Below, one piece after another: positions 28,377-51,335 of a stretch of DNA of 52,353 nt. This DNA is from Desulfobacterales bacterium (lineage in GTDB: Bacteria > Desulfobacterota > Desulfobacteria > Desulfobacterales > C00003060). Below the pieces are notes generated by a model that saw only the letters and a list, made by a program, of their open reading frames with translations, had not been told where the DNA came from and made no database searches. The DNA is taken from positions 1-52,353 of the forward strand of contig JAGMBW010000116.1 of assembly GCA_023129535.1 (NCBI GenBank). Reading direction: 5' to 3'. How positions within the stretch are numbered: the first letter of the stretch is position 1; each line of letters opens with the position of its first letter. The translations under genes and the position numbers were made by a program.

Positions 28377-28423
28377 TGTTGAAATTTTTTGAAAGATAAC
28401 TAAGCATTTGGGGTCAAATGGTA

Positions 28424-34182: not shown

Positions 34183-35841
34183 TTACCCGGTTGTATTATA
34201 ATTTACTTTAACACCACACTTTCTGAGCACCTTTCCGGTCCATTTAATTTGATACCCTGGCTCATGCTCATCTATTATTTTTAAAATGACGTGATCAGAA
34301 TACCGTGCTTCATTCCCCTGGTCGAGTTCTTTATGAACATCCGGGTCGAACTTCGACTTATATACTTCGGGTTCGATGGTCTGAATGCCGCAAAGCTCCA
34401 GCATGCGGGATCTGACCTGCTCAAGGTGATGCCTGTCAAATCCCCTGCCATTGGATTGCAATTTTTCATGCCATTGAAATATATCGTGAAAGGTCGAATC
34501 CAAAAAATGAAAAATTGAGTGAGCGACAATCTTTTCCAGATCGGGCCGCAGTTCATCCAAAGACGAATAGGCTTGAGACGAAAAATTATGCATTTTTTCA
34601 AGGTACCTTTTTTTGACCTCGTTAAGATACTTATCTGCGACCTCACGGTAGAACCTGTCGGGGTCCGGTATTTCCGTGTCGCTGCTCAAGGATTCTCCTG
34701 AAAAAATCTCAAAGCTCTTGAGATGGCTGTGCACACTGGAAGCCTCAAGGGCAGATATGTCCGCTTTTAAAAACGTATCAGGGTCCGAATATATTCGTTT
34801 ATATATCGGCTTAATGTCTTGGGCAAGCGGTGTAAATAGGTTGGTCATATCTTCTAATTCCTTTTTGCTTCTGTCTTCCGGAAGCAGCCTGTTGCTTTCT
34901 TGATCCAGAATTTGCTGAATTCCGTCATAAACCGGCATCAACTCTTTGAGTTCCAAGAGCTGTCTATCTCGTTCGTTGTTGTAATGATCCAATATCAGCT
35001 TTTCGAGGGTCCTAACCTTAAACTCAACTAACGGCCAAACCGATTGTAAAAAGTCTTCTTGCGGCGGGCGGGCCTTAGGGAAAAGTTCTTTTATTTTTTC
35101 ATCTATATTCTCAGCAGCTTCTATTCTATGACTGAGCTCTATGTAATCTTTTTTAATTTGCCTTACATCTTCTCTAAAAGTATTATGTTGTTTTTCAAGG
35201 GACTTGATAAAAGCATTAATGTTATGTATTTCTGTGTTACACTGTTCGGCGAAATCCTTCTTGAGATAAGAATCCTCTTGAAAATTTCGTAAAACATCAA
35301 GTACCGGACTGACCTTATTCCATAGATTGTTTACTCTTTCGTTCAGTCCCCCTTTTCCGTTCAGCAATTCATCGATATCTGTGATCTTTGATACAAGCGT
35401 TTCGATTTTCCCATGGGTATCATCTTGAGGCATGTCGGCGGTGGAAGATTTTACTGGTTTTTCCTCTTCAAAAGAGAAACGGAAACTTTTCGATTCTCGG
35501 AAGTTAATCGTTTTTCTAAAAAATACCTCTTTGAGCGCACCTCGTTTTCTTTGAAGTTCAATGTTCATCGTGTATAATTGGTCCGACGAAATGTTTTCCT
35601 CAGGCGTGAATGTGCTTTCGTCATCTTCAGCTATTAAAATATATTTCGGCTTTGGGCTTATCTCCGGGAAATCAATTCTCAACATACGATCCGTCATCCC
35701 CGATTTAGCTTTCCATTTGAAAATGAATTCACGTCCCTTTTTTTCGACTACAAAAGACTGGATGTCTATCTTTGCCAGGTTGGAGGGGTCATCTAAGTTT
35801 TGAGTATCAGGAGTTTGCCTGTTATTTTCTAGGAGATCCAT
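34183..35841 (-). CDS. GrpE-like protein, paralog 2
   Basis: About 80% aa identity to 32221..33900 over the full length. The same C-terminal GIQTIEPEVYKSKFDPDVH...GYQIKWTGKVLRKCGVKVN block. Confidence 0.65.
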   Translation of the reverse strand: MDLLENNRQTPDTQNLDDPSNLAKIDIQSFVVEKKGREFIFKWKAKSGMTDRMLRIDFPEISPKPKYILIAEDDESTFTPEENISSDQLYTMNIELQRKRGALKEVFFRKTINFRESKSFRFSFEEEKPVKSSTADMPQDDTHGKIETLVSKITDIDELLNGKGGLNERVNNLWNKVSPVLDVLRNFQEDSYLKKDFAEQCNTEIHNINAFIKSLEKQHNTFREDVRQIKKDYIELSHRIEAAENIDEKIKELFPKARPPQEDFLQSVWPLVEFKVRTLEKLILDHYNNERDRQLLELKELMPVYDGIQQILDQESNRLLPEDRSKKELEDMTNLFTPLAQDIKPIYKRIYSDPDTFLKADISALEASSVHSHLKSFEIFSGESLSSDTEIPDPDRFYREVADKYLNEVKKRYLEKMHNFSSQAYSSLDELRPDLEKIVAHSIFHFLDSTFHDIFQWHEKLQSNGRGFDRHHLEQVRSRMLELCGIQTIEPEVYKSKFDPDVHKELDQGNEARYSDHVILKIIDEHEPGYQIKWTGKVLRKCGVKVNYNTTG

Positions 35842-35896: not shown

Positions 35897-37396
35897 CTAC
35901 AGATCATCCAAATTAAACTTAATTTTCATCGGATCTTTTTTTTCTTCTGTCTTTGGAAGCGGCCCGTTTCTTTGTCGGCTGCTGGCTTTAGCGCTTTCGG
36001 AAACGGTGCGGTCGGATTTTTCCGGGGGCGATAATGCTGTTGCCGTAGATACCCTGTTTTGAAGAAACACGACTGCCTTCCTGACTTCCTCCACTCTTTC
36101 CAATACCGTCATAACCGCTGGGTCTTCTTTTTCGCCAATAACTAAAGTCTTACGGAGCTTCTGTGTTTTTTTGTCCAACCTATTAATATCTTCATTTAAT
36201 GCCTCCATCATTATTTTCTGGTTTTCCAATAGTGATTCAATTTTCTGGTTACCAGTTGAAGTGTCTCCAACTGAATCCAGGATGTGTCTAAAGTTTTCAG
36301 ACTGTGTCTCTAAATCTCTCAATACAGAATTTATATTAGAAGGTATATGCTGGTTCAATTGTTCAGAAACCTTTCTGATTATATCATCACGGTATCGTGA
36401 TAGATTATTCCTGCTATCGCTTTCATGTTTTCGGAAGGCGAAAAAAATCTGAAGGATAATAAAAAGAAACACTACTCCTAAAATGATTACTACTCCTAAA
36501 AGTAGTCGCACCGTTAAAAATGATGTCGTACCGCCATTTGGGGAAAATCCAGAAGTCTTGTTCTTCAAGCTTTCTATTTCAGATTTAATATCATCAATTT
36601 TTTTGGGCAGATCTTGTGCAAACTTTTCATCAATAGTTGACTTCAAGCTTGTAATGCTTTTGGACAAAGTGTCTGGTTTTGTCGCAAGGGCAGTGCGCTC
36701 AATATCAATGTTTTCTTCTTTCTTAACAATTTCAGTGGTAAGCGACTTGCCTTTTCCTGGGGATCGGATTATTCTTTTAAATTTATCAGGTAATGCGCTG
36801 ATAATATCACTTGCCGGCAATTCATTTTCTTCCGCTGAAGTTACACGAACCTTTGTTAATTTATCTTGAATGCCCAGTTTCCTGACATTAATTATAAAAA
36901 ACCATCTCTTATTCAACTCAAAAAGGGTTCCATGGTGGCCTTCAATATACTCAAAAAGTTTACACCATGTTTTATCTCTCCAATCGCCATCAACATCAGC
37001 AGTTCCTATTGCCCTCTGTAAAGCCTTTATGTTGTCTTCATTGACAACAGAACCGATCAGTGCAGATTTTAAATTTTTAATTCCATTTTCATCTTTCGAC
37101 TTAACTTTTTTACTTGGACTTGTAATATAAAACTTCACTGCTACTTCTAAATCAGGAGGGCCATTCTTGAACCCGTTAAGGATGTTAATAATCCGGTACT
37201 CCTTAGCATCGAAGGACTCCTTGTCTAGTTGAAACGCATCGTACAAAAGCAATTTGACTTCCTCGCTGTTATCGGCGCATATAGCTTTGAATAGATACAA
37301 TAGAAAAAAAAGGCATATAACGATCGTCAACAGTAACAGAAAATTGATTCGTTTATGCCTCATAGATCTTCGCTGCCTTTGAAATTGCATATCCAT
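35897..37396 (-). CDS. Bitopic/two-TM membrane protein with a PG_binding_1-like motif and a coiled-coil C-terminus
   Basis: Start taken at ATG 37396 (MDMQFQRQRR). TM1 INFLLLLTIVICLFFLLYLF and TM2 LLLGVVIILGVVFLFIILQIFFAF. Between them, IKALQRAIGTADVDGDWRDKTWCKLFEY resembles the LQ..L...vDG.fG..T peptidoglycan-binding motif. Confidence 0.55.
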   Translation of the reverse strand: MDMQFQRQRRSMRHKRINFLLLLTIVICLFFLLYLFKAICADNSEEVKLLLYDAFQLDKESFDAKEYRIINILNGFKNGPPDLEVAVKFYITSPSKKVKSKDENGIKNLKSALIGSVVNEDNIKALQRAIGTADVDGDWRDKTWCKLFEYIEGHHGTLFELNKRWFFIINVRKLGIQDKLTKVRVTSAEENELPASDIISALPDKFKRIIRSPGKGKSLTTEIVKKEENIDIERTALATKPDTLSKSITSLKSTIDEKFAQDLPKKIDDIKSEIESLKNKTSGFSPNGGTTSFLTVRLLLGVVIILGVVFLFIILQIFFAFRKHESDSRNNLSRYRDDIIRKVSEQLNQHIPSNINSVLRDLETQSENFRHILDSVGDTSTGNQKIESLLENQKIMMEALNEDINRLDKKTQKLRKTLVIGEKEDPAVMTVLERVEEVRKAVVFLQNRVSTATALSPPEKSDRTVSESAKASSRQRNGPLPKTEEKKDPMKIKFNLDDL

Positions 37397-37460
37397 AGCT
37401 GTGTTTATTTCCTTCACTTTTAATGCTTGATCATAAAGCTTCACTGAATTCGTCCCCAGT

Positions 37461-38555
37461 TCAATGGTAAAGTCTCGGCAAAGGGAACTCAACCACATGA
37501 GCAATTACAAGGCCTTGGTTTACCACTGCAAACCGAGCCTTTGCCAGACCATAATCCACTTTTTGGATATTGAGTTGCAAGTTACAGGGATTCTGCCGTT
37601 TGAACCCTTTTTCATCCAGGGAGGCAGTAAACCTTGCCATCGGAAAAAAACGCCCCTTATCTTTGAACCAGCAAGCCAAAGGGACGTCAAGATGTCGCGC
37701 GTCATCGAGTATGTCAAATACCTGTATCATGCTTTTGCCCGGCAGATCCGAAGGACCCAAAAGCGGGAAAAAATCATTCTCACCGGCGATCAGGCCCAGT
37801 GTTGTCTCCATGTTGAAATCCACCCGTGGCATGTCTCGCCGATTCATATACTCCTGAAAGTAGAAGTAACCTGAAGCGGCAGGGGTGTGCTGCGAATGGT
37901 TAGGCAAATCGAGAGGGTCGGTATCTGATAATGCCTGCCATCCAACCAGTCTGGCCTCCAATCTGTTGGGTCTCTTGATGACGGAAAATCGGAAAGCGCT
38001 TCCCGTGTTGGACGACGTTTTGATGGTAACGGCTATGGAGTCTGTTTCAGGCAAATCGATGATCTGTATCAGCCTTTGGGATTCAAACAGTTTTCTGAAA
38101 AATAATGCGAATGCCTCCGTGCACACTTCCACGACACAGCCGGGCAAGACCGTTGCCAGGGCGCGGATAATAGCCCGGCTTGCCTGTGGTTCCCATGCCA
38201 TGGGAACAAGACATACCATGGGCATTGACAGACGCAATCGGCTGAAAATTTGATTATTTTTCTTAAAAAAGAATCGCCAGATCGTTTCAAGCAGTTCATT
38301 CTCCCCGGCAATAAGCGGCATGATATGGTGGAATTGATGCAAACTAAACGTCTCATCCTCTTCAAGCTGATTTTCGTAAAACTGTCGATGCTCCGGGCTC
38401 TCTTTGCCGTTCGCTTCCGGTTTCAGGATGACATGAAACGGGACAGAAGCGGTCTGGTCGTATTCACTGCCACCATCAGTATAAACTGCCATCTCTTCGC
38501 CCGTTAAATCCAAAACCGCTGACGGGCGATAGTAATTAACCATGCCTTTTTGCAT
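37461..38555 (-). CDS. Hypothetical protein (~365 aa), translationally overlapped with the kinase-Hsp70 gene
   Basis: The track ORF runs to 38837, but its first ~94 aa overlap the upstream gene in another frame. ATG 38555 (MQKGMVNYYRPSAVLDLTGEEMAVY) gives a 20-nt overlap. Family not recognised. Confidence 0.55.
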   Translation of the reverse strand: MQKGMVNYYRPSAVLDLTGEEMAVYTDGGSEYDQTASVPFHVILKPEANGKESPEHRQFYENQLEEDETFSLHQFHHIMPLIAGENELLETIWRFFFKKNNQIFSRLRLSMPMVCLVPMAWEPQASRAIIRALATVLPGCVVEVCTEAFALFFRKLFESQRLIQIIDLPETDSIAVTIKTSSNTGSAFRFSVIKRPNRLEARLVGWQALSDTDPLDLPNHSQHTPAASGYFYFQEYMNRRDMPRVDFNMETTLGLIAGENDFFPLLGPSDLPGKSMIQVFDILDDARHLDVPLACWFKDKGRFFPMARFTASLDEKGFKRQNPCNLQLNIQKVDYGLAKARFAVVNQGLVIAHVVEFPLPRLYH

Positions 38556-41500
38556 CGATCCACACACCGTAAATTTGAACCCGCAGCCGAAGCTCAAAAT
38601 CCTTGGTAATCGCCATCCTAATAATACCCTGAACGTGTTTTTCGTCACAGCAGTCAGGCTTGGAAACGTCATACCGACCGACCTCCACGCACTTTGTATC
38701 GCTATACTCATCGTCACGGCCCGTATGTTCATAGACAATGATCTTCCACAACAACTTTCCGTCATTATCAAAATCAAAGTTCCGCACCCTTTCAGCGACG
38801 GCGTATGTTTGGGGATCAATAACCTTGCTTTTTTCAAATGCTTCCGTACTTACAAACCGTCTGTTCCTGGCAATCCATTCCACAAATCTTGTTTTGCTGC
38901 CGCCGACAGGTTTGGTCGTACCGATACGCCACCAATTCTTTCCGGATATGCTCCGGATGTCGATTTTTTGTTCGCCTGTCTGGATCCCGGCTATTTCTTC
39001 GGAACGATACAGGGCCGCACCCAATGCCACACCGGCTTTGGGCCGATCGGCAAATATGAGCTGGTCGTAGTCAAGCGACGTAGAGCTGGTTGGGTCATCA
39101 CGGAAAATCACTTCTTGTTTCTCATCACTCCACACGGGACGCTTCCCCTCTTTGAAAGCCTCAAACATTTGCTTTACCAGCGGAATTTTTGAAGATCTGC
39201 CTGAAAGGAGGATATGGCGGGGGGAACTTTCTGTTTCACTGTTGTTGTTATCGAGATCGAACATGGTTTGAATCATTGATACGCTCTCCTCGATTCGGGT
39301 AAAAATACAGCGCCGGATTTCGCTTCGCCTGATAGAAACAGGGGCGCTCCGCCGGTCTTCAATAAGGCCATTCACAAGGTTTTCATATTGGAGCAGAAAG
39401 GTGGCAGTCACCTCTTTTTGTTCTTTTTCCGGGCTAAAAAGTTCATCTGTTTTAATCTGTTCACAGCGACCCATCAGGATTCGAGCATTGGAGCCAGCTT
39501 GCCGCTCATGAACGGTAACGGTCCGACGCCCTGGTTCCGGCGGGAGTAAGGGCATATCGTCGTTTTTCTCGAATGACCCAATCACAATATTTCGTATTTC
39601 CCTCGTAACATCATCACCGCCGAAATCCTGCATACCGTCCACATCCAACACCTCGATTTTGATAAAGTTGCTAAGTTCATTATGGATGACCTGAAGGTAA
39701 GTAATATCAATAGTTCCGCCCCCAAAATCGTATACCAGCAAGCGATAGGCGCCCTGATTTTGGTAAATATGATGCAGCGCTGCCGCCGTGGCTTCGTCAA
39801 TCAGGGAATATCTGGACCTGTCAATGCCTGCCATTTTCAGAATGCGTCGGAGTGCCCGGACCCTGAGAAGCGTTAATTTGCTGGGATGGGTAAAAACATA
39901 GGCCGGAAAGGTCAGGCCCAGTTTCGCGCTGATTTGGGAAATTAAACGCTTTAAATAGTCCGCAATCATGTTCTCAACCGGAATTCTTTGGGTCCCTCCC
40001 CGAGGCAAAAAAACAAGTTCCGACTTTCTCCGATTTCCCAATTGACTTTTTAAAGAAGTAAAAGCATTCGGTTCGCCCGCGATCAAGTTGTAACTTGGTT
40101 GCCTCCCAATTTCGTAATCCTGAATTTTAAAAAAATATTGGATCACACTGGGGATAACCCGATCCTTTGGGCTGTTGTAAAGATCCAGCTCCAAAGGTTT
40201 GCTCCGGTCGGCTACACTCCGATAAGCAACGCAGTAACTGTACGTGGTGCCAAAATCGATGGCGCAAACATAGCCTTCTTCATGAGACAGAAGGGTAACC
40301 GTCAAATGCCGGACAAGCTTTTTAGGATGCCAACGACCATCCCTGAACACGTCATATTTGAAGATCAGGTTAAAGTTCATGTCGATTAGTTCCTGATCAT
40401 TTGCATCATCCTGATTTGTCTGCCAATTATCTATTGGATGAATGGTGTATTTCAAAGCAATTGGACGCCCGCTGCCGCCATCGAGAATGTCGTCGGAATC
40501 GACTTGATCGAACTCGATGACAGCGGAAAAATCGACTTCCGGATCACTACAGCTTTCGGCGACTGCTTCGATTTCCCTTATCCGCAACTTCCCTCCGCCT
40601 CCGTTGATCACGCTGAGGGATTTTCCCACGGGATCGTTTTGCTGATATAACCTGATGTGAATCGGACCGCGTTGGGGAAAAACAACCAGCCGCGGGGGAT
40701 TAATCATTTGCAGTTTGAATTCGTGGTCCAAAAAATAGGTATTGACTGGAAGCGGCTTTTTCCGGTTTTTCAGATACAAGAGCAATGTCAGATTGTAAGG
40801 TTGGTTTTCTTTGAGATGCTTGGTGTTAATCGACATCTGAACCGGCACCGATCCGGTTGTGCGGTCCAGCGTAATGTGCTCAACAGGGGTTTTGACTTGA
40901 ACACCTGCTGTCAGAAGTTCTTCGAGTCTGGCCTCGATTTTCTCTATAACAGCTTTACTGTTCAATAGTTCGAGATTTACCTGAAAATCGGCAAACTGGT
41001 TTTCGGGATCGAATTCTACTTCTATTAATCCTGGGGTAGCATCGAAACGGGGAACCGGCAAAAGCTCCACTGTGAGGGGCTCATCACAATCTTTGAAGGC
41101 CACATTGAATATCAACCCTGTGCGTTTTAACTTCTGATAATCAGGATGGCGCGAGGGTGTCACCTCCAGATAGAATTGCTGTGATTCGTTAACCGCCAAG
41201 GATTGAGGAAGGGGCGTGTGTCGAAGCCACTCATTCTGGACCACCCAATTTATATCATCCTCTTGCACGAACGTCAACCCGCATCCGGGATGCACACAGA
41301 CAAGGGCATTGTATTCGTTCAGGTGATCATTTGAGCACCGTTTTACAAATTCGGCTTCTTGAATATCTCTTGCCAGTTTTTCAACCGTGCGTATTCGCTG
41401 ATCGCAATTTTTTCTGAGGCAGCCGTCCAGAATCCGATTCAGTGTTGCCGGAAGGCCTTCGATACGGTTTCGGCTGACACCGTCGATGGTGATGTTGCCT

Positions 41501-42267
41501 AGCGTGTTTTCAACGGTTTTCCCCTTATAGGGGTGTTCCCCTCGCATGAATTGATACATCATAACGCCCAGTGACCATATATCCACCCACGTTCCAATGC
41601 TGCCGGTATGCCTCACGATTTGTTCGGGAGCAGCCCACACCGGTGCCATTAGAATGTCATTGTCCATACCGGGCGATAGATCATTTCCGTGAAATTCGAT
41701 CAGGGCGGGGACAGCAAGCTTTATCTTTTCGTCATCACCAATAAGAAGGTTTTGAGGCTTCAAATCGCCATGAATAATGGCATTGGAATTGCCGTCCGTG
41801 TCCATATGGCCATGCAAAGTAGCCAACCCGTCGCATATCTGAAGCAGCAGCCCTTTTAACTCTTCTCCCGGTACCACATCGTTGACGATATGTCCGTCGG
41901 CTGCGTGAAAATTATACTTGTCTGCAATAGAACCGTTTTCAAAATAGTCTGTGATTACACAGAAAAATTTGGCGTATTCCGTTTCTTCAACGAACCAGTC
42001 CAACGGGATGACAAGATGATTGGAATTCATGGTGGAAAGGGCTTCAAGCTTTTTCTCGATCATTTTGATTTGATGAGGAGCCGAATCGTCAGGCGAGAGC
42101 CCGGTCATTTTGACGGCATAGATTTCATCCGGTTTTTGTGTTTTCTCCACTTTGAAAGCGGGTCCGCGGCCGTCTTCTCCGATGGCATCAAGAATATGGT
42201 ATTCCTGTTTGTTGATCCATTTTCCGGAAAATATATAACCCAGGCCGTTGATTTTTCCCTCTTCCAT
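38536..42267 (-). CDS. Fusion protein: Ser/Thr-kinase-like domain + beta-rich middle region + Hsp70/actin-fold ATPase domain (no canonical Hsp70 substrate-binding domain)
   Basis: Kinase motifs: IGEDGRGPAF, YAVKM, IIHGDLKPQN, WAAPEQ, DIWSLGVMMY. Hsp70 NBD motifs: CAIDFGTTYSYCVAY, LIDEATAAAL, LLVYDFGGGTIDITYLQV, DFGGDDVTREI, ILLSGRSSKIPLVKQ, DRPKAGVALGAALY. ATG 42267 follows AGAGGA; the track start at 42288 is a TTG. Confidence 0.85.
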   Translation of the reverse strand: MEEGKINGLGYIFSGKWINKQEYHILDAIGEDGRGPAFKVEKTQKPDEIYAVKMTGLSPDDSAPHQIKMIEKKLEALSTMNSNHLVIPLDWFVEETEYAKFFCVITDYFENGSIADKYNFHAADGHIVNDVVPGEELKGLLLQICDGLATLHGHMDTDGNSNAIIHGDLKPQNLLIGDDEKIKLAVPALIEFHGNDLSPGMDNDILMAPVWAAPEQIVRHTGSIGTWVDIWSLGVMMYQFMRGEHPYKGKTVENTLGNITIDGVSRNRIEGLPATLNRILDGCLRKNCDQRIRTVEKLARDIQEAEFVKRCSNDHLNEYNALVCVHPGCGLTFVQEDDINWVVQNEWLRHTPLPQSLAVNESQQFYLEVTPSRHPDYQKLKRTGLIFNVAFKDCDEPLTVELLPVPRFDATPGLIEVEFDPENQFADFQVNLELLNSKAVIEKIEARLEELLTAGVQVKTPVEHITLDRTTGSVPVQMSINTKHLKENQPYNLTLLLYLKNRKKPLPVNTYFLDHEFKLQMINPPRLVVFPQRGPIHIRLYQQNDPVGKSLSVINGGGGKLRIREIEAVAESCSDPEVDFSAVIEFDQVDSDDILDGGSGRPIALKYTIHPIDNWQTNQDDANDQELIDMNFNLIFKYDVFRDGRWHPKKLVRHLTVTLLSHEEGYVCAIDFGTTYSYCVAYRSVADRSKPLELDLYNSPKDRVIPSVIQYFFKIQDYEIGRQPSYNLIAGEPNAFTSLKSQLGNRRKSELVFLPRGGTQRIPVENMIADYLKRLISQISAKLGLTFPAYVFTHPSKLTLLRVRALRRILKMAGIDRSRYSLIDEATAAALHHIYQNQGAYRLLVYDFGGGTIDITYLQVIHNELSNFIKIEVLDVDGMQDFGGDDVTREIRNIVIGSFEKNDDMPLLPPEPGRRTVTVHERQAGSNARILMGRCEQIKTDELFSPEKEQKEVTATFLLQYENLVNGLIEDRRSAPVSIRRSEIRRCIFTRIEESVSMIQTMFDLDNNNSETESSPRHILLSGRSSKIPLVKQMFEAFKEGKRPVWSDEKQEVIFRDDPTSSTSLDYDQLIFADRPKAGVALGAALYRSEEIAGIQTGEQKIDIRSISGKNWWRIGTTKPVGGSKTRFVEWIARNRRFVSTEAFEKSKVIDPQTYAVAERVRNFDFDNDGKLLWKIIVYEHTGRDDEYSDTKCVEVGRYDVSKPDCCDEKHVQGIIRMAITKDFELRLRVQIYGVWIDAKRHG

Positions 42268-42439
42268 TCTATTTGATCCTCTACGCAAATTTATAACAAC
42301 CGAAGTGAGGCAGCAGCTCCCTCCTGCTGCAGGGGTGCAGTCCGATTACCCGCTCATTCTTTAAATATGTAACCATAAAATGACGCCATCACGGCCGGTT
42401 CCTGGTTCAAGGGAAAAGCTTAGGTTGGCGATTTTAGTC

Positions 42440-43095
42440 CAGCATAGAAACCCTTACCCTCCGGGTAAGGTCAGAGTTCAGTTGGCTTTGCCTTCTGAAC
42501 AGCTCATCTGTTACATCCACACCTGAGTTGTCCCCACAACGTCAGGAAAGGAGTAACAAATGAGCCATTTTCGGAAATTATCACATACAATATGGCATTG
42601 CCAGTACCATATAGTCTGGACCCCGAAATACAGATATCGAGTGCTTTCAGGGGAAATAGCTGATGAAGTCGATGGCTGTATTCGGGTATTTTCGGAACAA
42701 CAAAAGTGCGAGATAGACGAAATGAATATTCAAGTAGACCACGTGCACCTTCTTGTAATGATACCGCCGAAGATATCGGTTTCGAACTATGTTGGAACGG
42801 TGAAGGGCCGGACAGCGATACGAGTATTGAATAGGTTCCGGCACCTAAAACAGAAACCCTATTGGGGTAATCATTTTTGGACCAAAGGGTACTGTGTCGA
42901 TACAGTAGGCCTTGATTCAGAAATGATTCGCAAGTACATAAAGTATCAAGAAGCCAAAGAACGCAGAGAAGAACAACAGCGAAGCTTGTTCTAATTCGTC
43001 TACAGGGGACAACTCAACCTTGCCTCCTCTGGGGGCAAGGCAAATTACCCCCTTCCAGGGATTATATCAAAGCCACGTCCTCTGGGCGTGGATCT
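42440..43095 (+). mobile_element. IS200/IS605-family insertion sequence (approximate limits)
   Basis: A single Y1-transposase gene flanked by subterminal hairpins: CCTTACCCTCCGGGTAAGG (42452-42470), CCTTGCCTCCTCTGGGGGCAAGG (43019-43040) and CCACGTCCTCTGGGCGTGG (43073-43091). The 5' UTR GAGTTGTCCCC is complementary to GGGGACAACTC after the stop. The ~650-bp size is IS200-like. Confidence 0.7.
42560..42994 (+). CDS. tnpA: IS200/IS605-family Y1 (HUH) transposase TnpA
   Basis: 144 aa. WHCQYHIVWTPKYRYRVL, HUH motif DHVHLLV, catalytic Tyr region WTKGYCVDTVG. RBS AAAGGAG. Confidence 0.92.
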   Translation: MSHFRKLSHTIWHCQYHIVWTPKYRYRVLSGEIADEVDGCIRVFSEQQKCEIDEMNIQVDHVHLLVMIPPKISVSNYVGTVKGRTAIRVLNRFRHLKQKPYWGNHFWTKGYCVDTVGLDSEMIRKYIKYQEAKERREEQQRSLF

Positions 43096-43136: not shown

Positions 43137-43367
43137 TCAATCCAGCAGAAGTCGGCCGACTTCGTCGATATCCACTAGACCTCTGTTTTCCAGACGGATC
43201 TTCAATTTTACAGGCCCGCCCTGGCCAATATATATCGGTCCGGTATGCTCTATCCTGTCTTGAAGGAAGACTCGGATCGATTTCAAACGGGCTCCGCAAA
43301 ACCCACAGTACTTGTCGCCGGCGGCAGGATCAACACTGTACCCGCTGCAGCAGTAATTACATTTCAT
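43137..43367 (-). CDS. Zinc-ribbon ORF (76 aa), possibly truncated by the IS200 insertion
   Basis: CNYCCSG...KYCGFCG, then the beginning of an Ig-like strand pattern (PVKLKIRLENRGLVDIDEV). The stop lies at or next to the inferred IS right end. Confidence 0.45.
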   Translation of the reverse strand: MKCNYCCSGYSVDPAAGDKYCGFCGARLKSIRVFLQDRIEHTGPIYIGQGGPVKLKIRLENRGLVDIDEVGRLLLD

Positions 43368-43403: not shown

Positions 43404-46400
43404 CTATTCCCATGTGCCCATACTCTCGCTTTTATTCTCTTTTTCACTATTTTCGGAAATATCATTATCACTGCCTGGAGTTGCTTTTTTCGGTAGTTCG
43501 GCCGTTTCCGCCTCCCTTTGTCCTTCCCAGGCCAGCTCTAAAATGTACTCCGGTATCTTCCAGGGCTTTGATTCATCCCAACCTTCCTGGGTTTTTCTTT
43601 CCGTGGAAGCATTCTTGGCATCCATCAGGTATCTATACAACTGGTTGCCGTACTTTTCCGCGCCCCTCTCTTCAGGGGGTGAAAAAACAGAATTGTGCCA
43701 GCTAAGCGCAAACTTGGAATGATCCGAATTCCAGCATCGCATGAGCACCGGAAACCAGTCCCTGTCCGGCCGGGTCTTATCTGCCGACGCCAGCGACGGC
43801 ACAATTTCACAGAAGGCATGCATCCAACTGCAAAGGGTATCCGAATCCTGATTGAGGGCCTGAATCTCTTCACTGGTCAGCACCATATGTTTGATCGCTA
43901 CTTTCCTACGATCCTGAAGTTCCTTAATAATAAAATAGTGTGACGACTGTTTTTCAACCTTCTCCTGCATTTGATCCTTAAAATAATAATTTTCGTAATA
44001 GATCACCAAAGGCCAGATCTTGCGAAGCGTCGTGGTAGAATTCAATAAATCCTGATTTTTCTCCCGCAAACGCTGAAAGGGCTGGGTATAGTTATCCGAT
44101 ACCGGCCCGTAAAAGAAAGATATAATTTGACTGACCGATTGGCCGAGTGAAACCATTTGTGGAACCCCTTCCAATCCCTTTCGTTCCAGTACCATTTTGT
44201 AATCGCCGGTAGCTCGATCAAACCAGATGGCGCCAAGCAAAATACCCAGGAACAGTTCCGTTTCAACGTCTACTCCATTCTCAAGGGCAAGAAGCTCCCG
44301 AGTGTCTTCACCGCGGGTCCAAACGGCTTCTTTCCACGAGAAAACTTTATGCTGCTCCTTGAGGTTTTTCACAATATCCAAAATAAGCAGCGGAACGCCG
44401 TCGTCGATGGTGAGTATGATTAACTCCTTGCCTTGATAGCCTGACGGTTCGGCCTCGATCCCCATTTCCTTTATGACTTTTTGGGAAAGGTCTAAAATAT
44501 CAAACGGTGCAAACACCCATTGTTTTTTAATGGTACTTTTTGCTTTGCCGAATCGATCGGAACGGTACGTCAGGTAGGAATCGCTGGTTGACAGGCAATG
44601 TTTGATATCGGTTCGAAATTTACTTTCTTTTTCGGAGCCCAATTTTTTATAATAATCCTTGAGCGTCGGTTCTATTTCGAGTTCGGTAACTCCTCTATCG
44701 ATCAGGATCGCGGTCCACTGGCCGGTACCTTCTCTAAAGCTTCCGGCTCGGGAAATATCCCAGACACAGTTCAGTGATTTATATGTTCCGTCTTGCAGAA
44801 GCTCTCCAAATCCTTCCTTCAAGGTCTCCAGCATCAACATCTGAGAAGGTAACGGATTTGTAAGGGCCTCGGGCGTTTGGTAGGAAGCGCCGCAGTAAAT
44901 ATTTCTGGAGCGCATATGCTGGAACCGCGAGAGGTCGGCAAGCTCGATTCTGATTCCCTCCTTATTGGACCCATCTTCACGCTCAAGCAAATCCTTCAGA
45001 CTTCTTTCCAGGGTTCTGGGGGCAGCCCCTCGATATCGGGCGCTGATCATACCTCCCCGGTTTTCCAGAAGCTTGACGATCTCATTCTGAGCCTGGGCCA
45101 CACGTTCCAGGACTTTTTTAATCGCTATCACAAGCCCTCTAGCAATTTCATCCAGAGCGCTTCTAATTTTTGTGATTGACGTTGTTTTTATGAAGTCACG
45201 CCATTCATCAAAACAGTCTTCGCTCAAAAAACACTCCTGAAAACGACGGTATAAATCTCCGCGCACTTTATTGGCGAAATTTATCGGGATTTCATTCAAC
45301 TCGTCAATATAACCCAACGTTCTCAGAGGCTCTGCGAAGCATGCGGCCCAGCGCTGCACGGTGGAAGGCACATTTTTAAGGCCCATCCAATCCAGCTTGG
45401 CACTCTGGCTGACAACCCACTCCTGACACTCTGCCGTAAAATCCCCGGGTAGAGATTTATCATCGGCCGTATTGGCATTAACAAGTCTTTTCTCCCCTTC
45501 GGCTTTTTCAATCAAAGCGTCAATAAACGCAACCGTCGACTTAAGACCGTGCTCTGCAATCCAATACTCAAGCAGTTTGTTCACGCTCACGCCGGTCTCA
45601 CTATTCAATTTCTTTCTCCATTTGTTCAGGGCGGCATCAATGAGACCTTCATTGCCGTAGCAACCGGTTCCAGACTCGAAATTGACACCGGTAGAAACCT
45701 TTTTGAAAAAACTTTCAGGGGTACGGAGATTTTGAAAATCTTCCCGGACGGCCTGCAACATGGCATTGGAAAATGCCTGAAATATTTCCTGAACGCCCCA
45801 GCCGAATTGTTTCCATGCTTTCTGGGCATTATCGGCCACTTCCGCGGATGAGAGTGCTTCTTTTTCAAGAATCGTGGTAATAAATTGGTCCATCAGATAA
45901 AATGCAGCCCAGCGCTGAATCAGGGTTTCGCCGATGAATATTTTCGACAGACCGAATCCGCCATAATGCCGGGCATAGTCCCTGCTGCTGATGCTGTCCG
46001 TACTCTGAAAAACTTCGGTTGGCAGCGTGAACATCTCCTTGTTTTGCCGATAAGCATTGATCAGTTTGCCCTGCTCGCGCTCGACAAATTGGGTATACAC
46101 CATATCTGCCGTCATTTCCGTGGCATCCTCAGCACCCCAAAGAGAGTTCCCTCCCCGGTTGCGGGCACCAATAAGATAAGCCCAGTCAAAGGCCCGGGTA
46201 TGATTAAAAATGTCGTTGGGTTCTTTAATCAAACCGGTTGCCTCCTTATAGGGACTCCAGTCGGGGACAAAAAAATCGGCTTTTTCAAAACCGCGGTCAA
46301 AACAAAAATCGCTGGGTTGGTTCAACTGATACCTTTCCAGTTCGGAAAGCGCTGCATATGAGCCGGCCATCACGAGCTGCTGGGGTGAAAGATCTTCATC

Positions 46401-47165
46401 GACCAGTACTTTCGGCGGTTTAAAAGTTGATATAGCTGTCGAATCTTCGAGGATAATATCAGGAAGATAAAGAAAAAGCTTAATCCCTTTCAACCCGACC
46501 TCAGTGTAAATAATTCGATCTCTCAAGAAAAGTTCGTGAATTAGATAGGCCACATCCAGGAATATCCCTGATCCGGTGCCTCCTGCCGTTGAGCAAAAAA
46601 TAAGCACTTCAATATCGCGTTGCTCATGATCCAATGTAAACTGCCCATCGACGTTATCCCAGGCAGGATCAGGTGGGGCGTTAAGATCATGAAGGCGCCG
46701 GAACTTGTGCTGAAATGCCTCAACCAGATAGCGCTTCCTCCCCATCATTGCCAGCATGAACGCCAACTTACCAAATGCGCGAATCCCCGAAGCACCTTCT
46801 CTCAGCCTGACATGATCGAATCTCCTCAAGCGCGGATGAAACCATTTCAGGGCATCGACAACCTGGGGAACCACTTTCCCCTGATACAAATCTCTTAAAT
46901 CGTGTTCTTTCCAGGACAAATTGATGAACTCACCTTCTCCACCCGCTGTCACCGGAGAAAAGGAGACCTTTCGATCAATGGAGTCGTAAGTGGTTTTGTA
47001 CATCCTGGCACTTGGATCATTATCGGTGTCCAGAACAAGATATTCCAGAGCGGGAATTTTGATTAAACCGTAATTTTCATAAATTTTACGACGAAAAGCG
47101 CGGAGGGTTGCCTTGCCGAACCCGCCCAAGCCTACCATTAGTGTTTTTGGGATTGGAATTGCCAT
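43404..47165 (-). CDS. Giant tubulin/FtsZ-superfamily GTPase-like protein (1253 aa; N-terminal GTPase domain plus a ~850-aa unknown extension)
   Basis: T1-like LMVGLGGFGKATL (aa 9-21). Exact tubulin-signature-type T4 loop STAGGTGSG (aa 192-200). GASGIRAFGKLAF block. RBS GAGGT 6 nt upstream of the ATG. Confidence 0.75.
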   Translation of the reverse strand: MAIPIPKTLMVGLGGFGKATLRAFRRKIYENYGLIKIPALEYLVLDTDNDPSARMYKTTYDSIDRKVSFSPVTAGGEGEFINLSWKEHDLRDLYQGKVVPQVVDALKWFHPRLRRFDHVRLREGASGIRAFGKLAFMLAMMGRKRYLVEAFQHKFRRLHDLNAPPDPAWDNVDGQFTLDHEQRDIEVLIFCSTAGGTGSGIFLDVAYLIHELFLRDRIIYTEVGLKGIKLFLYLPDIILEDSTAISTFKPPKVLVDEDLSPQQLVMAGSYAALSELERYQLNQPSDFCFDRGFEKADFFVPDWSPYKEATGLIKEPNDIFNHTRAFDWAYLIGARNRGGNSLWGAEDATEMTADMVYTQFVEREQGKLINAYRQNKEMFTLPTEVFQSTDSISSRDYARHYGGFGLSKIFIGETLIQRWAAFYLMDQFITTILEKEALSSAEVADNAQKAWKQFGWGVQEIFQAFSNAMLQAVREDFQNLRTPESFFKKVSTGVNFESGTGCYGNEGLIDAALNKWRKKLNSETGVSVNKLLEYWIAEHGLKSTVAFIDALIEKAEGEKRLVNANTADDKSLPGDFTAECQEWVVSQSAKLDWMGLKNVPSTVQRWAACFAEPLRTLGYIDELNEIPINFANKVRGDLYRRFQECFLSEDCFDEWRDFIKTTSITKIRSALDEIARGLVIAIKKVLERVAQAQNEIVKLLENRGGMISARYRGAAPRTLERSLKDLLEREDGSNKEGIRIELADLSRFQHMRSRNIYCGASYQTPEALTNPLPSQMLMLETLKEGFGELLQDGTYKSLNCVWDISRAGSFREGTGQWTAILIDRGVTELEIEPTLKDYYKKLGSEKESKFRTDIKHCLSTSDSYLTYRSDRFGKAKSTIKKQWVFAPFDILDLSQKVIKEMGIEAEPSGYQGKELIILTIDDGVPLLILDIVKNLKEQHKVFSWKEAVWTRGEDTRELLALENGVDVETELFLGILLGAIWFDRATGDYKMVLERKGLEGVPQMVSLGQSVSQIISFFYGPVSDNYTQPFQRLREKNQDLLNSTTTLRKIWPLVIYYENYYFKDQMQEKVEKQSSHYFIIKELQDRRKVAIKHMVLTSEEIQALNQDSDTLCSWMHAFCEIVPSLASADKTRPDRDWFPVLMRCWNSDHSKFALSWHNSVFSPPEERGAEKYGNQLYRYLMDAKNASTERKTQEGWDESKPWKIPEYILELAWEGQREAETAELPKKATPGSDNDISENSEKENKSESMGTWE

Positions 47166-51253: not shown

Positions 51254-51335
51254 ATTCACACCCACCTACTATGCGACAAATGTTGACGGTGTCTGTCCCC
51301 CCAACAAGTAACCAAATATTGTATTAGTCATAAAA

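What the first reader, a model, noticed from the sequence alone, without database searches (positions are those of the whole stretch)
38536..42267. Ser/Thr-kinase-like domain fused to a complete Hsp70 nucleotide-binding domain; DFG motif apparently missing
A single ORF contains both domains.

Kinase domain (aa ~30-310, nt ~41359-42216 in track numbering) has the glycine loop, VAIK-type Lys (YAVKM), catalytic loop IIHGDLKPQN, APE (WAAPEQ) and DIWSLG. Where DFG should sit, between KIKLA and APE, the sequence reads VPALIEF. No Mg-binding Asp is evident, so it may be a pseudokinase or an atypical kinase.

The Hsp70/actin-fold ATPase (aa ~673-1100, nt ~38989-40272) has all diagnostic motifs: phosphate-1 IDFGTTYS, connect DEATAAAL, phosphate-2 YDFGGGTID and adenosine LLSGRSSKIPLV.

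Between them lie a CxxxC...CxxxGC-like segment and ~330 aa of beta-rich sequence. After the NBD there is only a ~150-aa beta tail, not a DnaK-type substrate-binding domain with lid.

I do not recognise a kinase-Hsp70 fusion as a described architecture.
Basis: partly seen in the sequence, partly recalled or inferred. Interest (0 to 1): 0.85.

Follow-up and report, generated by a model that had tools for sequence, protein, structure and literature searches.

The report
Dead-kinase–Hsp70 fusion beside bacterial tubulin
This is one real gene that joins a probably inactive protein-kinase-like domain to a lid-less Hsp70 chaperone engine. It always sits next to a tubulin-like GTPase gene in a large, uncharacterised envelope-associated operon, so it is an undescribed variant of a gene system known only from computer predictions.

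Summary
Window 38536-42267 (-) is one intact 1243-codon gene: a kinase-fold domain, a CHCC zinc ribbon, an all-beta region (about three sandwiches by strand pattern), and an Hsp70 ATPase domain with all catalytic residues. DFG is replaced by V186-P187-A188.

Two things change.
- The C-terminal "beta tail" is most likely a diverged Hsp70 substrate-binding beta domain without the helical lid.
- The kinase defect is family-wide. None of the 23 kinase-fused relatives aligned has both catalytic Asp residues. Most read HGN plus D-x-x; the window lineage reads HGD plus VPA.

The fusion is not an assembly artefact. About 24 clusters at 50% identity carry it, and it evolves under purifying selection.

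The gene belongs to a 13-gene operon conserved down to 31-47% identity: vWA, Zn-ribbon protein, membrane protein, FtsZl1/Tubulin_2 GTPase, small Zn-ribbon protein, this gene, unknowns, two GrpE-like genes, and a ZorA/ZorB-like pair. A Tubulin_2 gene lies upstream, on the same strand, of the Ig-Hsp70 module in 27 of 28 informative loci. In sister proteins a TIR domain replaces the kinase-like domain.

Best reading: a GrpE-cycled Hsp70 clamp with a pseudokinase binding module, acting in an FtsZl1-vWA conflict or membrane-remodelling system. No experiment exists.

The parts
38536..42267 (-). Whole gene, 1243 codons plus stop: kinase-like, Zn ribbon, all-beta region, Hsp70 NBD, SBD-beta-like tail
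   Evidence: Continuous ORF. Pfam finds Pkinase and HSP70. Collinear homologues at 27-91% identity.
41380..42201 (-). Kinase-fold domain (aa 23-296), predicted pseudokinase or non-canonical kinase
   Evidence: Pfam Pkinase E 3e-27. Alignment to PknB. Family motif table. dN/dS 0.26-0.35, so the domain is under constraint.
41749..41772 (-). Catalytic loop H166-G-D168-L-K-P-Q-N173. The HRD Asp is present here but is Asn in most relatives.
41704..41712 (-). V186-P187-A188 at the DFG position (Mg-binding Asp absent)
   Evidence: phmmer alignment to 4eqm and mafft family alignment.
41281..41337 (-). CHCC zinc-ribbon-like cluster (C311, H315, C324, C329)
   Evidence: Invariant in A1. Kinase-less relatives have a Pfam Zn_Ribbon_1 hit at their N-terminus, in front of their Ig-like domains (L036); equivalence of the two positions is inferred.
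40288..41244 (-). All-beta region (aa ~342-660); about three sandwiches by my count from the strand pattern
   Evidence: AF2 model residues 44-362 are all beta. Relatives hit HYDIN/VesB-like Ig and DUF1573 in their pre-NBD region.
38983..40275 (-). Hsp70 nucleotide-binding domain (aa ~665-1095) with intact catalytic residues
   Evidence: Pfam HSP70, DnaK alignments, Foldseek hits to DnaK/BiP at E 1e-28.
38539..38982 (-). C-terminal beta domain (aa ~1096-1243), probable diverged SBD-beta; no alpha-helical lid
   Evidence: Foldseek alignments of ~600 columns to NBD+SBD-beta structures. hhalign to DnaK/Hsc70 SBD-beta P 0.002. hmmsearch of the tail alone against PDB found nothing.
43404..47165 (-). 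FtsZl1/Tubulin_2-type GTPase (1253 aa) with a GGTGSG loop; the invariable upstream partner gene
   Evidence: Pfam Tubulin_2 E 7e-37. GGTGSG at residue 195. Upstream of the module gene, same strand, in 27 of 28 informative loci.
43137..43367 (-). Small Zn-ribbon protein (76 aa) between the tubulin-like gene and the kinase-Hsp70 gene
   Evidence: Orthologues in L003, L001 and L026 at the same position.
48989..51265 (-). vWA-domain protein (758 aa) with an N-terminal signal anchor and a DxSxS MIDAS motif; first gene of the operon
   Evidence: Pfam VWA_2/VWA, weak (E 9e-5). Hydrophobic segment at 12-30. DKSAS at residue 40. Orthologues in related loci.
47577..48953 (-). Zn-ribbon protein (458 aa) with a C-terminal part that looks beta-rich by eye; no P-loop
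   Evidence: Pfam DZR/Zn_Ribbon_1, weak. No Walker A motif. Conserved in related loci.
47224..47589 (-). Small protein (121 aa) with three hydrophobic segments
37461..38543 (-). Conserved 360-aa protein of unknown fold; its start overlaps the kinase-Hsp70 stop by 8 nt
   Evidence: Orthologues in 12 loci. Same overlap in L003.
35897..37504 (-). Protein of up to 535 aa (start uncertain) with two hydrophobic segments; only weak Pfam hits to coiled-coil-type families
34183..35841 (-). GrpE-like protein 1 (552 aa; GrpE domain at the C-terminus)
   Evidence: Pfam GrpE E 1.3e-7, aa 410-547.
32221..33900 (-). GrpE-like protein 2 (559 aa), tandem paralogue 75% identical to protein 1
   Evidence: Pfam GrpE E 2.7e-7. 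BLASTP 75% identity.
30395..32191 (-). Conserved 598-aa protein of unknown function that travels with the ZorA/ZorB-like pair
   Evidence: Co-occurs with the ZorA-like and OmpA genes in L001, L003, L025, L027, L038 and L062.
28424..30211 (-). MotA/ZorA-like membrane protein (595 aa, three hydrophobic segments); weak assignment
   Evidence: PADLOC ZorA3 E 1.9e-5 over residues 131-527. NCBIfam ZorA E 1e-3. Hydrophobicity scan. No PDB sequence hit.
27711..28448 (-). MotB/ZorB-like protein with one hydrophobic segment and an OmpA peptidoglycan-binding domain; last gene of the operon
   Evidence: Pfam OmpA E 2e-10. PADLOC ZorB1 E 1e-22, full length.
42560..42994 (+). IS200-type Y1 transposase gene in an insertion specific to this window; not part of the system
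   Evidence: Pfam Y1_Tnp E 1e-40. Absent from L003.

Best explanation
Shown.
- The gene encodes one soluble protein: a Hanks-type kinase-fold domain, a CHCC zinc ribbon, an all-beta region (about three sandwiches), an Hsp70 ATPase domain with intact catalytic residues, and a C-terminal beta domain.
- It belongs to a family in which the Ig + Hsp70 module is strictly paired with an FtsZl1/Tubulin_2 GTPase gene.
- One clade of that family acquired the N-terminal kinase-like domain.
- The window's copy sits in a 13-gene operon that also encodes a vWA protein with a signal anchor, membrane proteins, two GrpE-like proteins and a ZorA/ZorB-like (MotAB-like) pair.

Inferred.
1. The kinase-like domain does not work as a canonical phosphotransferase. 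It is a pseudokinase kept as a binding, sensing or scaffolding module. This would resemble HER3, which from my own knowledge carries HRN. TIR domains occupy the same slot in sister proteins.
2. The C-terminal domain is a lid-less SBD-beta. The Hsp70 part therefore runs an ATP/ADP clamp cycle that the operon's own GrpE-like exchange factors reset. No J-protein is encoded.
3. The clamp holds or releases a segment of an operon partner, most plausibly the tubulin-like protein or its small Zn-ribbon neighbour. In doing so it gates assembly of a GTP-dependent polymer, or of the whole complex, at the inner membrane.
4. The complex responds to an envelope signal conveyed by the vWA and ZorAB-like components. 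It serves either biological conflict (phage or other invader containment, as Kaur et al. 2020 proposed for tubulin/HSP70-containing systems) or membrane remodelling (Makarova and Koonin 2010).
For: Architecture.

Pseudokinase signature.
- DFG is VPA in the window.
- In the 23 kinase-fused family members aligned, HRD is HGN, HGA, HLG, FAN or HSF everywhere except the window/P0001 lineage.
- The DFG Gly is absent in all, and none has both Asp residues.
- P0001, 91% identical to the window protein, has also changed the catalytic-loop Asn to Asp.
- The Gly loop is degenerate.
- APE, DIWSLG and the VAIK Lys are conserved, and dN/dS is 0.26-0.35, no higher than in the NBD. The domain is functional, not decaying.

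Hsp70 part.
- The D8, K70, E171, D194 and T199 equivalents are all present.
- Foldseek's best hits are NBD+SBD-beta structures in the ATP-docked state, with ~600 aligned columns and TM to target up to 0.73.
- hhalign places the tail on SBD-beta in the expected register. The DnaK fragment used as query was verified against PDB 1bpr.
- Two GrpE-like genes are present. There is no J-domain: Pfam finds none, and neither HPD tripeptide lies in a J-domain-like context.

System.
- All 13 genes are conserved, in the same order where the related contigs are long enough, between lineages only 31-47% identical.
- A Tubulin_2 gene lies upstream, on the same strand (directly in most loci), in 27 of 28 informative loci. 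It is absent from loci with ordinary ~620-aa Hsp70 genes.
- TIR_2 replaces the kinase-like domain in P0024 and P0025.
- ZorB-like E 1e-22; ZorA-like E 2e-5.
- The tubulin GGTGSG loop and the vWA DxSxS motif are intact.
- Published predictions for related operons: PMC2875224 and PMC7159879.
Against: - No experiment exists for any member. Everything beyond the domain anatomy is inference.
- The window protein keeps the HRD Asp, the catalytic Lys and the catalytic-loop Asn. An atypical activity, such as the Mg-independent activity of CASK (from my own knowledge), cannot be excluded for this lineage.
- SBD-beta homology rests on a predicted structure plus a weak profile match (hhalign probability 13%). 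An HMM of the tail alone finds nothing in PDB. I could not inspect the Foldseek residue ranges.
- The client of the clamp is a guess.
- The ZorA-like assignment is weak (E 2e-5, no PDB hit).
- The locus lacks the defining DO-GTPase/GAP1 pair of the Kaur et al. systems, so carrying over their 'conflict system' reading is indirect.
- The window is an ordinary chromosomal region (MetE, LpxC, NtrC-type regulator). I did not test it for defence-island character.
Confidence: 0.5

Rival explanations
1. Active atypical kinase. In the window lineage the kinase domain is catalytically competent despite lacking DFG. It would use the regained HRD Asp, K53 and N173, or metal-independent chemistry. It would phosphorylate operon partners such as the tubulin-like protein or the GrpE-like proteins, or clients held by the Hsp70 part.
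For: - HGD, the catalytic-loop Lys and Asn, the VAIK Lys, APE and helix F are present in the window protein.
- The domain is under purifying selection.
- FtsZl1 operons often contain kinases (PMC2875224), and active kinases with a Zn ribbon and a beta-rich domain occur in related systems (PMC7159879).
- A lineage relative (L002) has an FHA-domain protein upstream of the vWA gene, which hints at phospho-signalling.
Against: - No Mg-binding Asp, and the Gly loop is degenerate.
- All closest outgroups have HGN, so the ancestor was already non-canonical.
- The 91%-identical P0001 has changed the catalytic-loop Asn.
- No PP2C phosphatase is detected in the operon, and no FHA protein lies upstream of the vWA gene in the window.
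Confidence: 0.2
2. Housekeeping cytoskeletal or membrane-remodelling machine, not a conflict system. The tubulin-like polymer, the Hsp70/GrpE cycle and the MotAB-like stator would build or maintain an envelope or intracellular membrane structure. The pseudokinase would be a structural adaptor.
For: - Makarova and Koonin's original prediction for FtsZl1-vWA-OmpA operons.
- Many membrane components.
- Chromosomal housekeeping neighbourhood.
- All 13 genes are conserved, in the same order where contigs allow, between distant lineages. That is unlike the rapid shuffling typical of defence loci.
Against: - A TIR domain, a hallmark immune effector, swaps with the kinase-like domain in sister proteins.
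- The last two genes are ZorA/ZorB-like.
- Distribution is rare and patchy: about 24 clusters at 50% identity among 1.8 billion representatives.
- Whole-gene dN/dS is fairly high, 0.35-0.43.
- An IS element has inserted inside the operon.
Confidence: 0.25
3. Assembly or frameshift artefact, or a recent accidental fusion of two separate genes.
For: Some representatives contain only the NBD plus tail (P0016, P0021, P0022; ~560 aa). These could be separate genes or fragments.
Against: - The 1243-codon frame is uninterrupted.
- The same architecture occurs in about 24 clusters from unrelated metagenomes at 27-91% identity.
- All domains are under purifying selection.
Confidence: 0.01
4. An ordinary DnaK paralogue for general protein folding that happens to carry a regulatory kinase domain.
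For: Intact ATPase residues and GrpE-like partners.
Against: - No lid and no J-protein.
- Only 18-19% identity to DnaK in structural alignments, and far below the NCBIfam DnaK cut-off (64 vs 648 bits).
- Strict pairing with Tubulin_2, whereas ordinary Hsp70 loci lack it.
Confidence: 0.03

Closest known systems
FtsZl1-vWA operons (Makarova and Koonin 2010, Biol Direct 5:33; PMC2875224)
   Same: - FtsZl1/Tubulin_2 GTPase with a long C-terminal extension.
- vWA protein with an intact MIDAS motif.
- A protein-kinase-type gene, an OmpA-family protein and many lineage-specific membrane proteins.
- Predicted multicomponent, membrane-associated machine.
   Different: - No diverged P-loop GTPase here.
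- That paper does not mention Hsp70 or DnaK at all (0 occurrences).
- Here the 'kinase' is fused to an Hsp70 module and looks catalytically dead.
- The OmpA protein is MotB/ZorB-like and paired with a MotA/ZorA-like protein.
GAP1-N2 DO-GTPase conflict systems with tubulin, HSP70/GrpE and kinase themes (Kaur, Burroughs, Iyer, Aravind 2020, eLife 9:e52696; PMC7159879)
   Same: [quoted passage not shown]
- Inactive enzyme domains used as effector or sensor modules.
   Different: - The core DO-GTPase, GAP1 and FNIII components are not detected.
- The three themes, described there as non-overlapping and mostly in actinobacteria and firmicutes, are combined here in one operon, and two of them in one polypeptide.
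- The kinase there is described as catalytically active and paired with PP2C. Here it is not canonical and no PP2C is present.
- The closest named homologue here comes from a deltaproteobacterial MAG.
Hsp70-like NBD/SBD units fused into CoCoNuT/McrBC systems (CnuD, CnuCD; Bell et al., bioRxiv 2023.07.31.551357; PMC10542128)
   Same: Precedent for a diverged Hsp70 NBD+SBD unit recruited by fusion into a predicted defence system, together with Ig-like and Zn-ribbon domains.
   Different: - Different partners (McrB GTPase, McrC N-terminal domain, HEPN).
- The ATPase motifs there are degenerate, and RNA binding is proposed.
- Here the ATPase residues are intact and dedicated GrpE-like factors are encoded.
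Zorya ZorA/ZorB (MotAB-like) anti-phage module
   Same: The last two genes resemble ZorA (weakly) and ZorB (E 1e-22): a membrane protein with three hydrophobic segments, plus a protein with one hydrophobic segment and an OmpA-type peptidoglycan-binding domain.
   Different: - No ZorC, ZorD, ZorE, ZorF or ZorG.
- The ZorA match is far below family cut-offs.
- The ZorB match may only reflect general MotB similarity.
Pseudokinases with an HRD Asp-to-Asn change, such as HER3/ErbB3 (comparison from my own knowledge, not tested here)
   Same: Kinase fold kept under selection, with the catalytic Asp replaced by Asn in most family members. The VAIK Lys is retained, which is compatible with nucleotide binding and an allosteric or scaffold role.
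   Different: Unrelated lineage and context. The window lineage itself has HGD and lacks the DFG Asp instead.

Membership tests
Hanks-type (eukaryotic-like) Ser/Thr protein kinases, catalytically competent | Kinase fold recognised by profile | tested here: met
   Pfam Pkinase E 3e-27, 96 bits against a cut-off of 31.7.
Hanks-type (eukaryotic-like) Ser/Thr protein kinases, catalytically competent | Gly-rich loop GxGxxG | tested here: not met
   G-E-D-G-R-G; the second Gly is Asp. Not conserved in the family.
Hanks-type (eukaryotic-like) Ser/Thr protein kinases, catalytically competent | VAIK Lys | tested here: met
   K53 in YAVKM aligns with the AIK Lys of PknB.
Hanks-type (eukaryotic-like) Ser/Thr protein kinases, catalytically competent | Helix C Glu pairing with the Lys | tested here: inconclusive
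   The aligned position is Lys in the window and variable in the family, but alignment is uncertain in this region.
Hanks-type (eukaryotic-like) Ser/Thr protein kinases, catalytically competent | HRD catalytic Asp and catalytic-loop Asn | tested here: met
   H166-G-D168...N173 in the window. Asn, Ala, Gly or other residues replace the Asp in all other lineages, and N173 is Asp in P0001.
Hanks-type (eukaryotic-like) Ser/Thr protein kinases, catalytically competent | DFG Mg-binding Asp | tested here: not met
   V186-P187-A188.
Hanks-type (eukaryotic-like) Ser/Thr protein kinases, catalytically competent | APE motif and helix F | tested here: met
   WAAPEQ and DIWSLG, conserved across the family.
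Hsp70/DnaK family | Actin-fold NBD with phosphate-1, phosphate-2 and adenosine motifs and the catalytic residues (D8, K70, E171, D194, T199 equivalents) | tested here: met
   Alignment to DnaK, Pfam HSP70, Foldseek E 1e-28.
Hsp70/DnaK family | SBD-beta peptide-binding sandwich after the NBD | tested here: inconclusive
   Foldseek alignments of ~600 columns to NBD+SBD-beta structures. hhalign P 0.002, probability 13%. Sequence HMM of the tail finds nothing.
Hsp70/DnaK family | SBD-alpha helical lid | tested here: not met
   The protein ends after the beta domain, and the last ~145 residues of the model contain no long helix.
Hsp70/DnaK family | Equivalog-level similarity to DnaK or HscA | tested here: not met
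   NCBIfam DnaK 64 bits against a cut-off of 648; HscA 53 against 709.
Hsp70/DnaK family | Co-chaperones: GrpE exchange factor and a J-domain protein | tested here: inconclusive
   Two GrpE-like genes are in the operon. No J-domain is detected in any operon protein. A J-protein could be encoded elsewhere.
FtsZl1-vWA operon (Makarova and Koonin 2010) | FtsZl1-type tubulin homologue | tested here: met
   Pfam Tubulin_2 E 7e-37; GGTGSG loop. Equating Tubulin_2 with FtsZl1 is my inference.
FtsZl1-vWA operon (Makarova and Koonin 2010) | vWA-domain protein in the same operon | tested here: met
   VWA_2 E 9e-5 (23.5 bits, below the 27-bit cut-off) plus a DxSxS motif.
FtsZl1-vWA operon (Makarova and Koonin 2010) | Frequent accessory genes: protein kinase, OmpA-family protein, diverged GTPase | tested here: inconclusive
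   A kinase-like domain (fused) and an OmpA protein are present. No P-loop protein is present.
DO-GTPase / GAP1-N2 conflict systems (Kaur et al. 2020) | DO-GTPase (TRAFAC GTPase, often with N-terminal Zn ribbons) | tested here: not met
   No Walker A motif in any of the 13 operon proteins. The Zn-ribbon protein at 47577-48953 has no P-loop.
DO-GTPase / GAP1-N2 conflict systems (Kaur et al. 2020) | GAP1 protein and FNIII-repeat protein | not testable with these tools
   No GAP1 models are in the libraries. Pfam finds no FNIII in the operon.
Zorya anti-phage system | ZorA and ZorB | tested here: inconclusive
   ZorB1 E 1e-22. ZorA3 E 1.9e-5, NCBIfam ZorA 17 bits against a cut-off of 190.
Zorya anti-phage system | Type-specific effectors ZorC/D, ZorE or ZorF/G | tested here: not met
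   No PADLOC hits to these in the operon proteins.

The most novel reading that the evidence does not exclude
Bacteria possess a self-contained, cytoskeleton-based machine in which a dedicated lid-less Hsp70/GrpE cycle controls polymerisation of a tubulin-like GTPase at the membrane. Polymerisation would respond to an envelope signal sensed by a ZorAB-like stator and a vWA protein. The N-terminal slot of the Hsp70 protein would carry interchangeable output or sensor modules (pseudokinase, TIR). That would make this an immune, abortive-infection-type system of a kind not yet demonstrated experimentally, with the pseudokinase acting as a decoy or sensor for invader proteins.
Probability: 0.25. 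Interest if true: 0.85.

Novelty: new variant of a known kind. Interest (0 to 1): 0.58.

Why it matters
- FtsZl1/Tubulin_2 systems have been known from sequence analysis since 2010, but none has been studied experimentally.
- This analysis identifies the tubulin-like GTPase and an Ig-Hsp70 protein as a near-obligate gene pair.
- The Hsp70 part keeps a working ATPase and probably a peptide clamp, and it has its own GrpE-like exchange factors.
- One clade of the family has added a kinase-fold domain that has lost canonical catalytic residues. A sister group carries a TIR domain in the same position.
- Together these give a concrete, testable model for how a chaperone cycle could regulate a bacterial tubulin polymer.
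- They also provide a rare bacterial example of a conserved pseudokinase.
- If the system is defensive, it would link Zorya-like envelope sensing to a cytoskeletal output.

Tried and rejected
1. The genome-contig scan with the full-length alignment chose kinase motifs and returned only unrelated kinases. None had any other operon gene.
2. The word-indexed homologue search found only 3 relatives with the single protein and 3 with the 17-sequence profile. The exhaustive HMM search was needed to see the family.
3. AF2 with a 4-sequence alignment failed (pLDDT 37). The 17-sequence alignment gave pLDDT 84.
4. An HMM of the C-terminal tail against PDB sequences found nothing at E <= 10.
5. Pfam at E <= 1 on the beta-rich middle, the tail, p360, p598 and ZnR458 found nothing useful.
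6. Membership in the DO-GTPase/GAP1 systems was rejected because no P-loop protein is present.
7. The supplement of Kaur et al. held as text has no HSP70, GrpE or tubulin entries.
8. Literature searches for a kinase-Hsp70 fusion, for Hsp70 plus pseudokinase, and for Zorya plus tubulin or Hsp70 found no description.
9. The ZorA-like protein has no meaningful PDB sequence hit.
10. I looked for an FHA protein upstream of the vWA gene, as in L002. None is in the window.
11. I looked for a J-domain or HPD motif. There are two HPD tripeptides, neither in a J-domain-like context.
12. An iterative profile of the 76-aa Zn-ribbon protein collected 107 hits in 86 loci, which I took for profile drift, and I did not use it.

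Full report

The minus-strand ORF 38536..42288 is uninterrupted. The ATG at 42267 gives a 1243-aa protein whose N-terminus matches its closest homologue.

Pfam places a protein-kinase domain at aa 23-296 (E 3e-27) and an Hsp70 domain at aa 669-905 (E 3e-12) in the same polypeptide.

- YAVK aligns with the VAIK Lys.
- IIHGDLKPQN aligns with the catalytic loop.
- WAAPEQ aligns with APE, and DIWSLG with helix F.
- KIKL-AVP-ALIEF lies over LKIF-DFG-IAKA, so the DFG triplet is V186-P187-A188 and no Mg-binding Asp is present.

One correction: the glycine loop is degenerate (G-E-D-G-R-G).

In the Hsp70 part, the equivalents of DnaK D8, K70, E171, D194 and T199 are all present.

**2. Is it one gene?**

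Yes. A word-indexed search found only three full-length relatives, at 91, 39 and 38% identity. An exhaustive HMM search of 1.8 billion cluster representatives, using aa 299-1243 as query, found 43 proteins at E < 1e-30.

About 20 of these are 1180-1390 aa long. They match the whole query and have a further ~290-aa N-terminal extension, which is a Pkinase domain. In all, 24 of the top 150 representatives carry the kinase-like domain.

Comparison of the window gene with two close relatives gives dN/dS of 0.26-0.35 for the kinase-like domain. The NBD gives 0.32-0.37 and the whole gene 0.35-0.43. Every domain is therefore maintained by selection. The frameshift or assembly explanation is refuted.

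**3. The kinase-like domain is non-canonical across the whole family.**

- The HRD triplet is HGN in most members, and HGA, HLG, FAN or HSF/HSY in others. It is HGD only in the window protein and P0001.
- The DFG position is D-x-x without Gly (DFN, DVD, DFA, DPD, DID and others) in most members. It has no Asp at all in the window lineage, nor in P0010, P0041, P0048 and P0053.
- No member combines both Asp residues.
- P0001, at 91% identity, has additionally changed the catalytic-loop Asn to Asp.
- The VAIK Lys is mostly kept. APE and DIWSLG are strongly conserved.

This is the signature of a pseudokinase kept for binding, possibly including nucleotide binding. The outgroups indicate that the window lineage regained Asp in HRD while losing the DFG Asp. 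A non-canonical activity in this lineage cannot be excluded.

**4. The rest of the protein.**

AF2 with a 4-sequence alignment failed (pLDDT 37). With a 17-sequence family alignment it gave pLDDT 84 and pTM 0.72. Model residue m corresponds to protein residue m + 298.
- Residues 44-362 of the model are all beta. I count about three sandwiches from the strand pattern.
- Residues 367-797 form the Hsp70 NBD.
- Residues 800-945 form a beta domain.

Kinase-less relatives hit Zn_Ribbon_1, HYDIN/VesB-like Ig and DUF1573 in the region before their NBD. The middle of the window protein is therefore a Zn ribbon followed by Ig-like domains.

Foldseek against PDB returns full-length or lid-truncated DnaK and BiP in the ATP-bound, docked conformation:
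- E is about 1e-28, with about 600 aligned columns.
- TM normalised to the target is 0.62-0.73.
- ADP-state structures, where the domains are undocked, align with rmsd above 25 Å.

That coverage exceeds the NBD alone. It implies that the C-terminal domain is modelled as an SBD-beta docked on the NBD.

Two sequence tests followed.
- A sequence HMM of the tail finds nothing in PDB.
- hhalign against DnaK/Hsc70 SBD-beta gives a 68-column alignment in the expected register (IYEH.GR over V.EGER; vG.F over LG.F; LRiEIt over IEVTFDID) at P 0.002 and probability 13%.

I conclude that the tail is probably a diverged SBD-beta and that the helical lid is absent.

**5. Genomic context.**

The gene lies in a minus-strand operon of 13 genes:
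1. vWA protein, 48989-51265 (N-terminal hydrophobic segment, DxSxS motif)
2. Zn-ribbon protein, 47577-48953
3. Small protein with three hydrophobic segments, 47224-47589
4. Tubulin_2/FtsZl1 GTPase, 43404-47165 (GGTGSG loop)
5. 76-aa Zn-ribbon protein, 43137-43367
6. The kinase-Hsp70 gene
7. 360-aa protein whose start overlaps the stop of gene 6
8. Protein of up to 535 aa with two hydrophobic segments
9. and 10. Two GrpE-like genes, 75% identical to each other
11. 598-aa protein of unknown function
12. MotA/ZorA-like protein
13. MotB/ZorB-like OmpA protein

All 13 genes recur, in the same order where contigs are long enough, in contigs whose proteins are only 31-47% identical to the window's (L001, L002). 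They also recur in close relatives (L003, L004, L027).

No operon protein has a P-loop. The kinase-Hsp70 protein has no hydrophobic segment passing the scan threshold, which suggests it is soluble.

An IS200-type transposase gene (42560-42994, plus strand) lies in an insertion between genes 5 and 6. It is found only in the window.

**6. The tubulin/Hsp70 pair.**

I fetched 80 metagenome loci through the Hsp70 motif. In these and the earlier loci I extracted ORFs, searched them with iterated profiles of each operon protein, and tabulated the hits per locus.
- Of the loci whose Hsp70 protein matches the Ig-like region as well as the NBD and tail, and which have enough upstream DNA, 27 of 28 have a Tubulin_2 gene upstream on the same strand. 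In most it is directly adjacent.
- Loci with ordinary ~620-aa Hsp70 genes have none.
- Kinase-less versions (~900 aa, Zn ribbon + Ig + Hsp70) are the commoner form. One example is L025, on a 4.25-Mb contig.
- The p598, ZorA-like and ZorB-like trio co-occurs with the pair in kinase-less loci too (L025, L038, L062).
- Two representatives (P0024, P0025) have a TIR_2 domain where the kinase-like domain sits, and their phosphate-2 motif is degenerate.

**7. Comparison with the literature.**

- Makarova and Koonin (2010) defined FtsZl1. They described operons with vWA proteins, protein kinases, a diverged GTPase and OmpA proteins, and predicted membrane remodelling. Their paper does not mention Hsp70.
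- Kaur et al. (2020) described DO-GTPase/GAP1 conflict systems 'with or without tubulin and HSP70 components'. Within the GAP1-N2 type they listed three non-overlapping themes: tubulin with vWA; HSP70 with GrpE, including an HSP70 without a peptide-binding domain; and an active kinase with a Zn ribbon and a beta-rich domain plus PP2C and vWA.
- The window's operon combines all three themes and fuses two of them into one protein. It lacks the defining DO-GTPase, so it is not a member of that class as defined.
- Bell et al. (2023) provide a precedent for Hsp70 NBD/SBD units fused into predicted defence systems.
- I found no paper that describes a kinase-Hsp70 fusion. Automated annotation has already labelled one homologue with both names.

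**8. Mechanism.**

Shown:
- the domain anatomy;
- the loss of canonical kinase residues across the family;
- intact ATPase residues;
- GrpE-like neighbours;
- the near-strict Tubulin_2 pairing;
- conservation of the operon;
- the kinase/TIR domain swap.

Inferred:
- The Hsp70 part runs an ATP/ADP clamp cycle reset by the operon's own exchange factors.
- Through SBD-beta it holds or releases a segment of a partner, most plausibly the tubulin-like protein or the small Zn-ribbon protein, and so gates assembly.
- The pseudokinase is a binding, sensing or scaffold module in a slot that can also hold an effector (TIR).
- The vWA and ZorAB-like proteins couple the machine to the envelope.

Whether the system serves defence or membrane remodelling cannot be decided from sequence.
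- For a conflict role: the TIR swap, the ZorAB-like pair, the rarity of the family, the moderate dN/dS and the IS insertion.
- For a structural role: the stable gene order and the housekeeping neighbourhood.

**9. Verdict.**

It is best filed as a new variant (a fusion with a family-wide pseudokinase) within a computationally known but experimentally untouched class of tubulin-like/vWA/Hsp70 systems.

Noticed in passing
window 42500-43136 (transposase gene 42560-42994, + strand): An IS200/IS605-type Y1 transposase gene (Pfam Y1_Tnp E 1e-40) lies in an insertion of roughly 650-700 nt inside the operon, between the 76-aa Zn-ribbon gene and the kinase-Hsp70 gene. It is absent from the close relative L003, whose gene table and that of L004 show only a ~190-nt gap there. 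It may affect expression of the downstream genes.
   Followed up: partly
window 32221-33900 and 34183-35841 (-): The two GrpE-like genes are tandem duplicates, 75% identical. Each has a long N-terminal region (~400 aa) in front of the GrpE domain. In L003 the equivalent region is arranged differently (440-aa, 138-aa and 295-aa genes).
   Followed up: partly
window 27711-28448 (-) versus L001 18799-19467: The OmpA/ZorB-like protein is 75% identical between the window and the distant locus L001. Every other operon protein is only 31-47% identical. This suggests either very strong constraint or a recent exchange of this one gene.
   Followed up: no
P0024, P0025 (representative proteins, no locus fetched): A TIR_2 domain replaces the kinase-like domain in front of the same Ig + Hsp70 + tail module. 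In these proteins the Hsp70 phosphate-2 motif is degenerate (YDFCRESID, YHFGSRAIE), so the ATPase may be inactive there.
   Followed up: partly
P0004, P0005, P0006 (representative proteins): These ~1150-1195-aa proteins are built of four tandem kinase-like domains. P0004 and P0006 have HGN catalytic loops, the same Asp-to-Asn change as in the fusion family. They have no Hsp70 part.
   Followed up: no
L051 2248-8885 and L052 2253-8885: L051 has two tandem Tubulin_2 paralogues (~1090 aa each) upstream of a kinase-less Ig-Hsp70 gene. In L052 the second copy is split into two ORFs (426 and 617 aa).
   Followed up: no
L002 1-1654: In the 39%-identity lineage, a protein with FHA and Clp_N-like domains lies immediately upstream of the vWA gene. 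The window has about 1 kb without any similar coding sequence at that position.
   Followed up: yes
window 23132-26521 (-): Downstream of the operon are genes for a DUF1598 protein (a family I recall as mostly planctomycete), a protein without Pfam hits, and a staphylococcal-nuclease + helix-hairpin-helix (ComEA-like) protein. I did not examine whether they relate to the operon.
   Followed up: no
metagenome Ga0272440 (loci L028-L032, L034): Six different members of the module family (27-31% identical to the window protein) come from one metagenome. Three are kinase-fused and three are kinase-less or truncated. Several diverged versions therefore coexist in one community.
   Followed up: no
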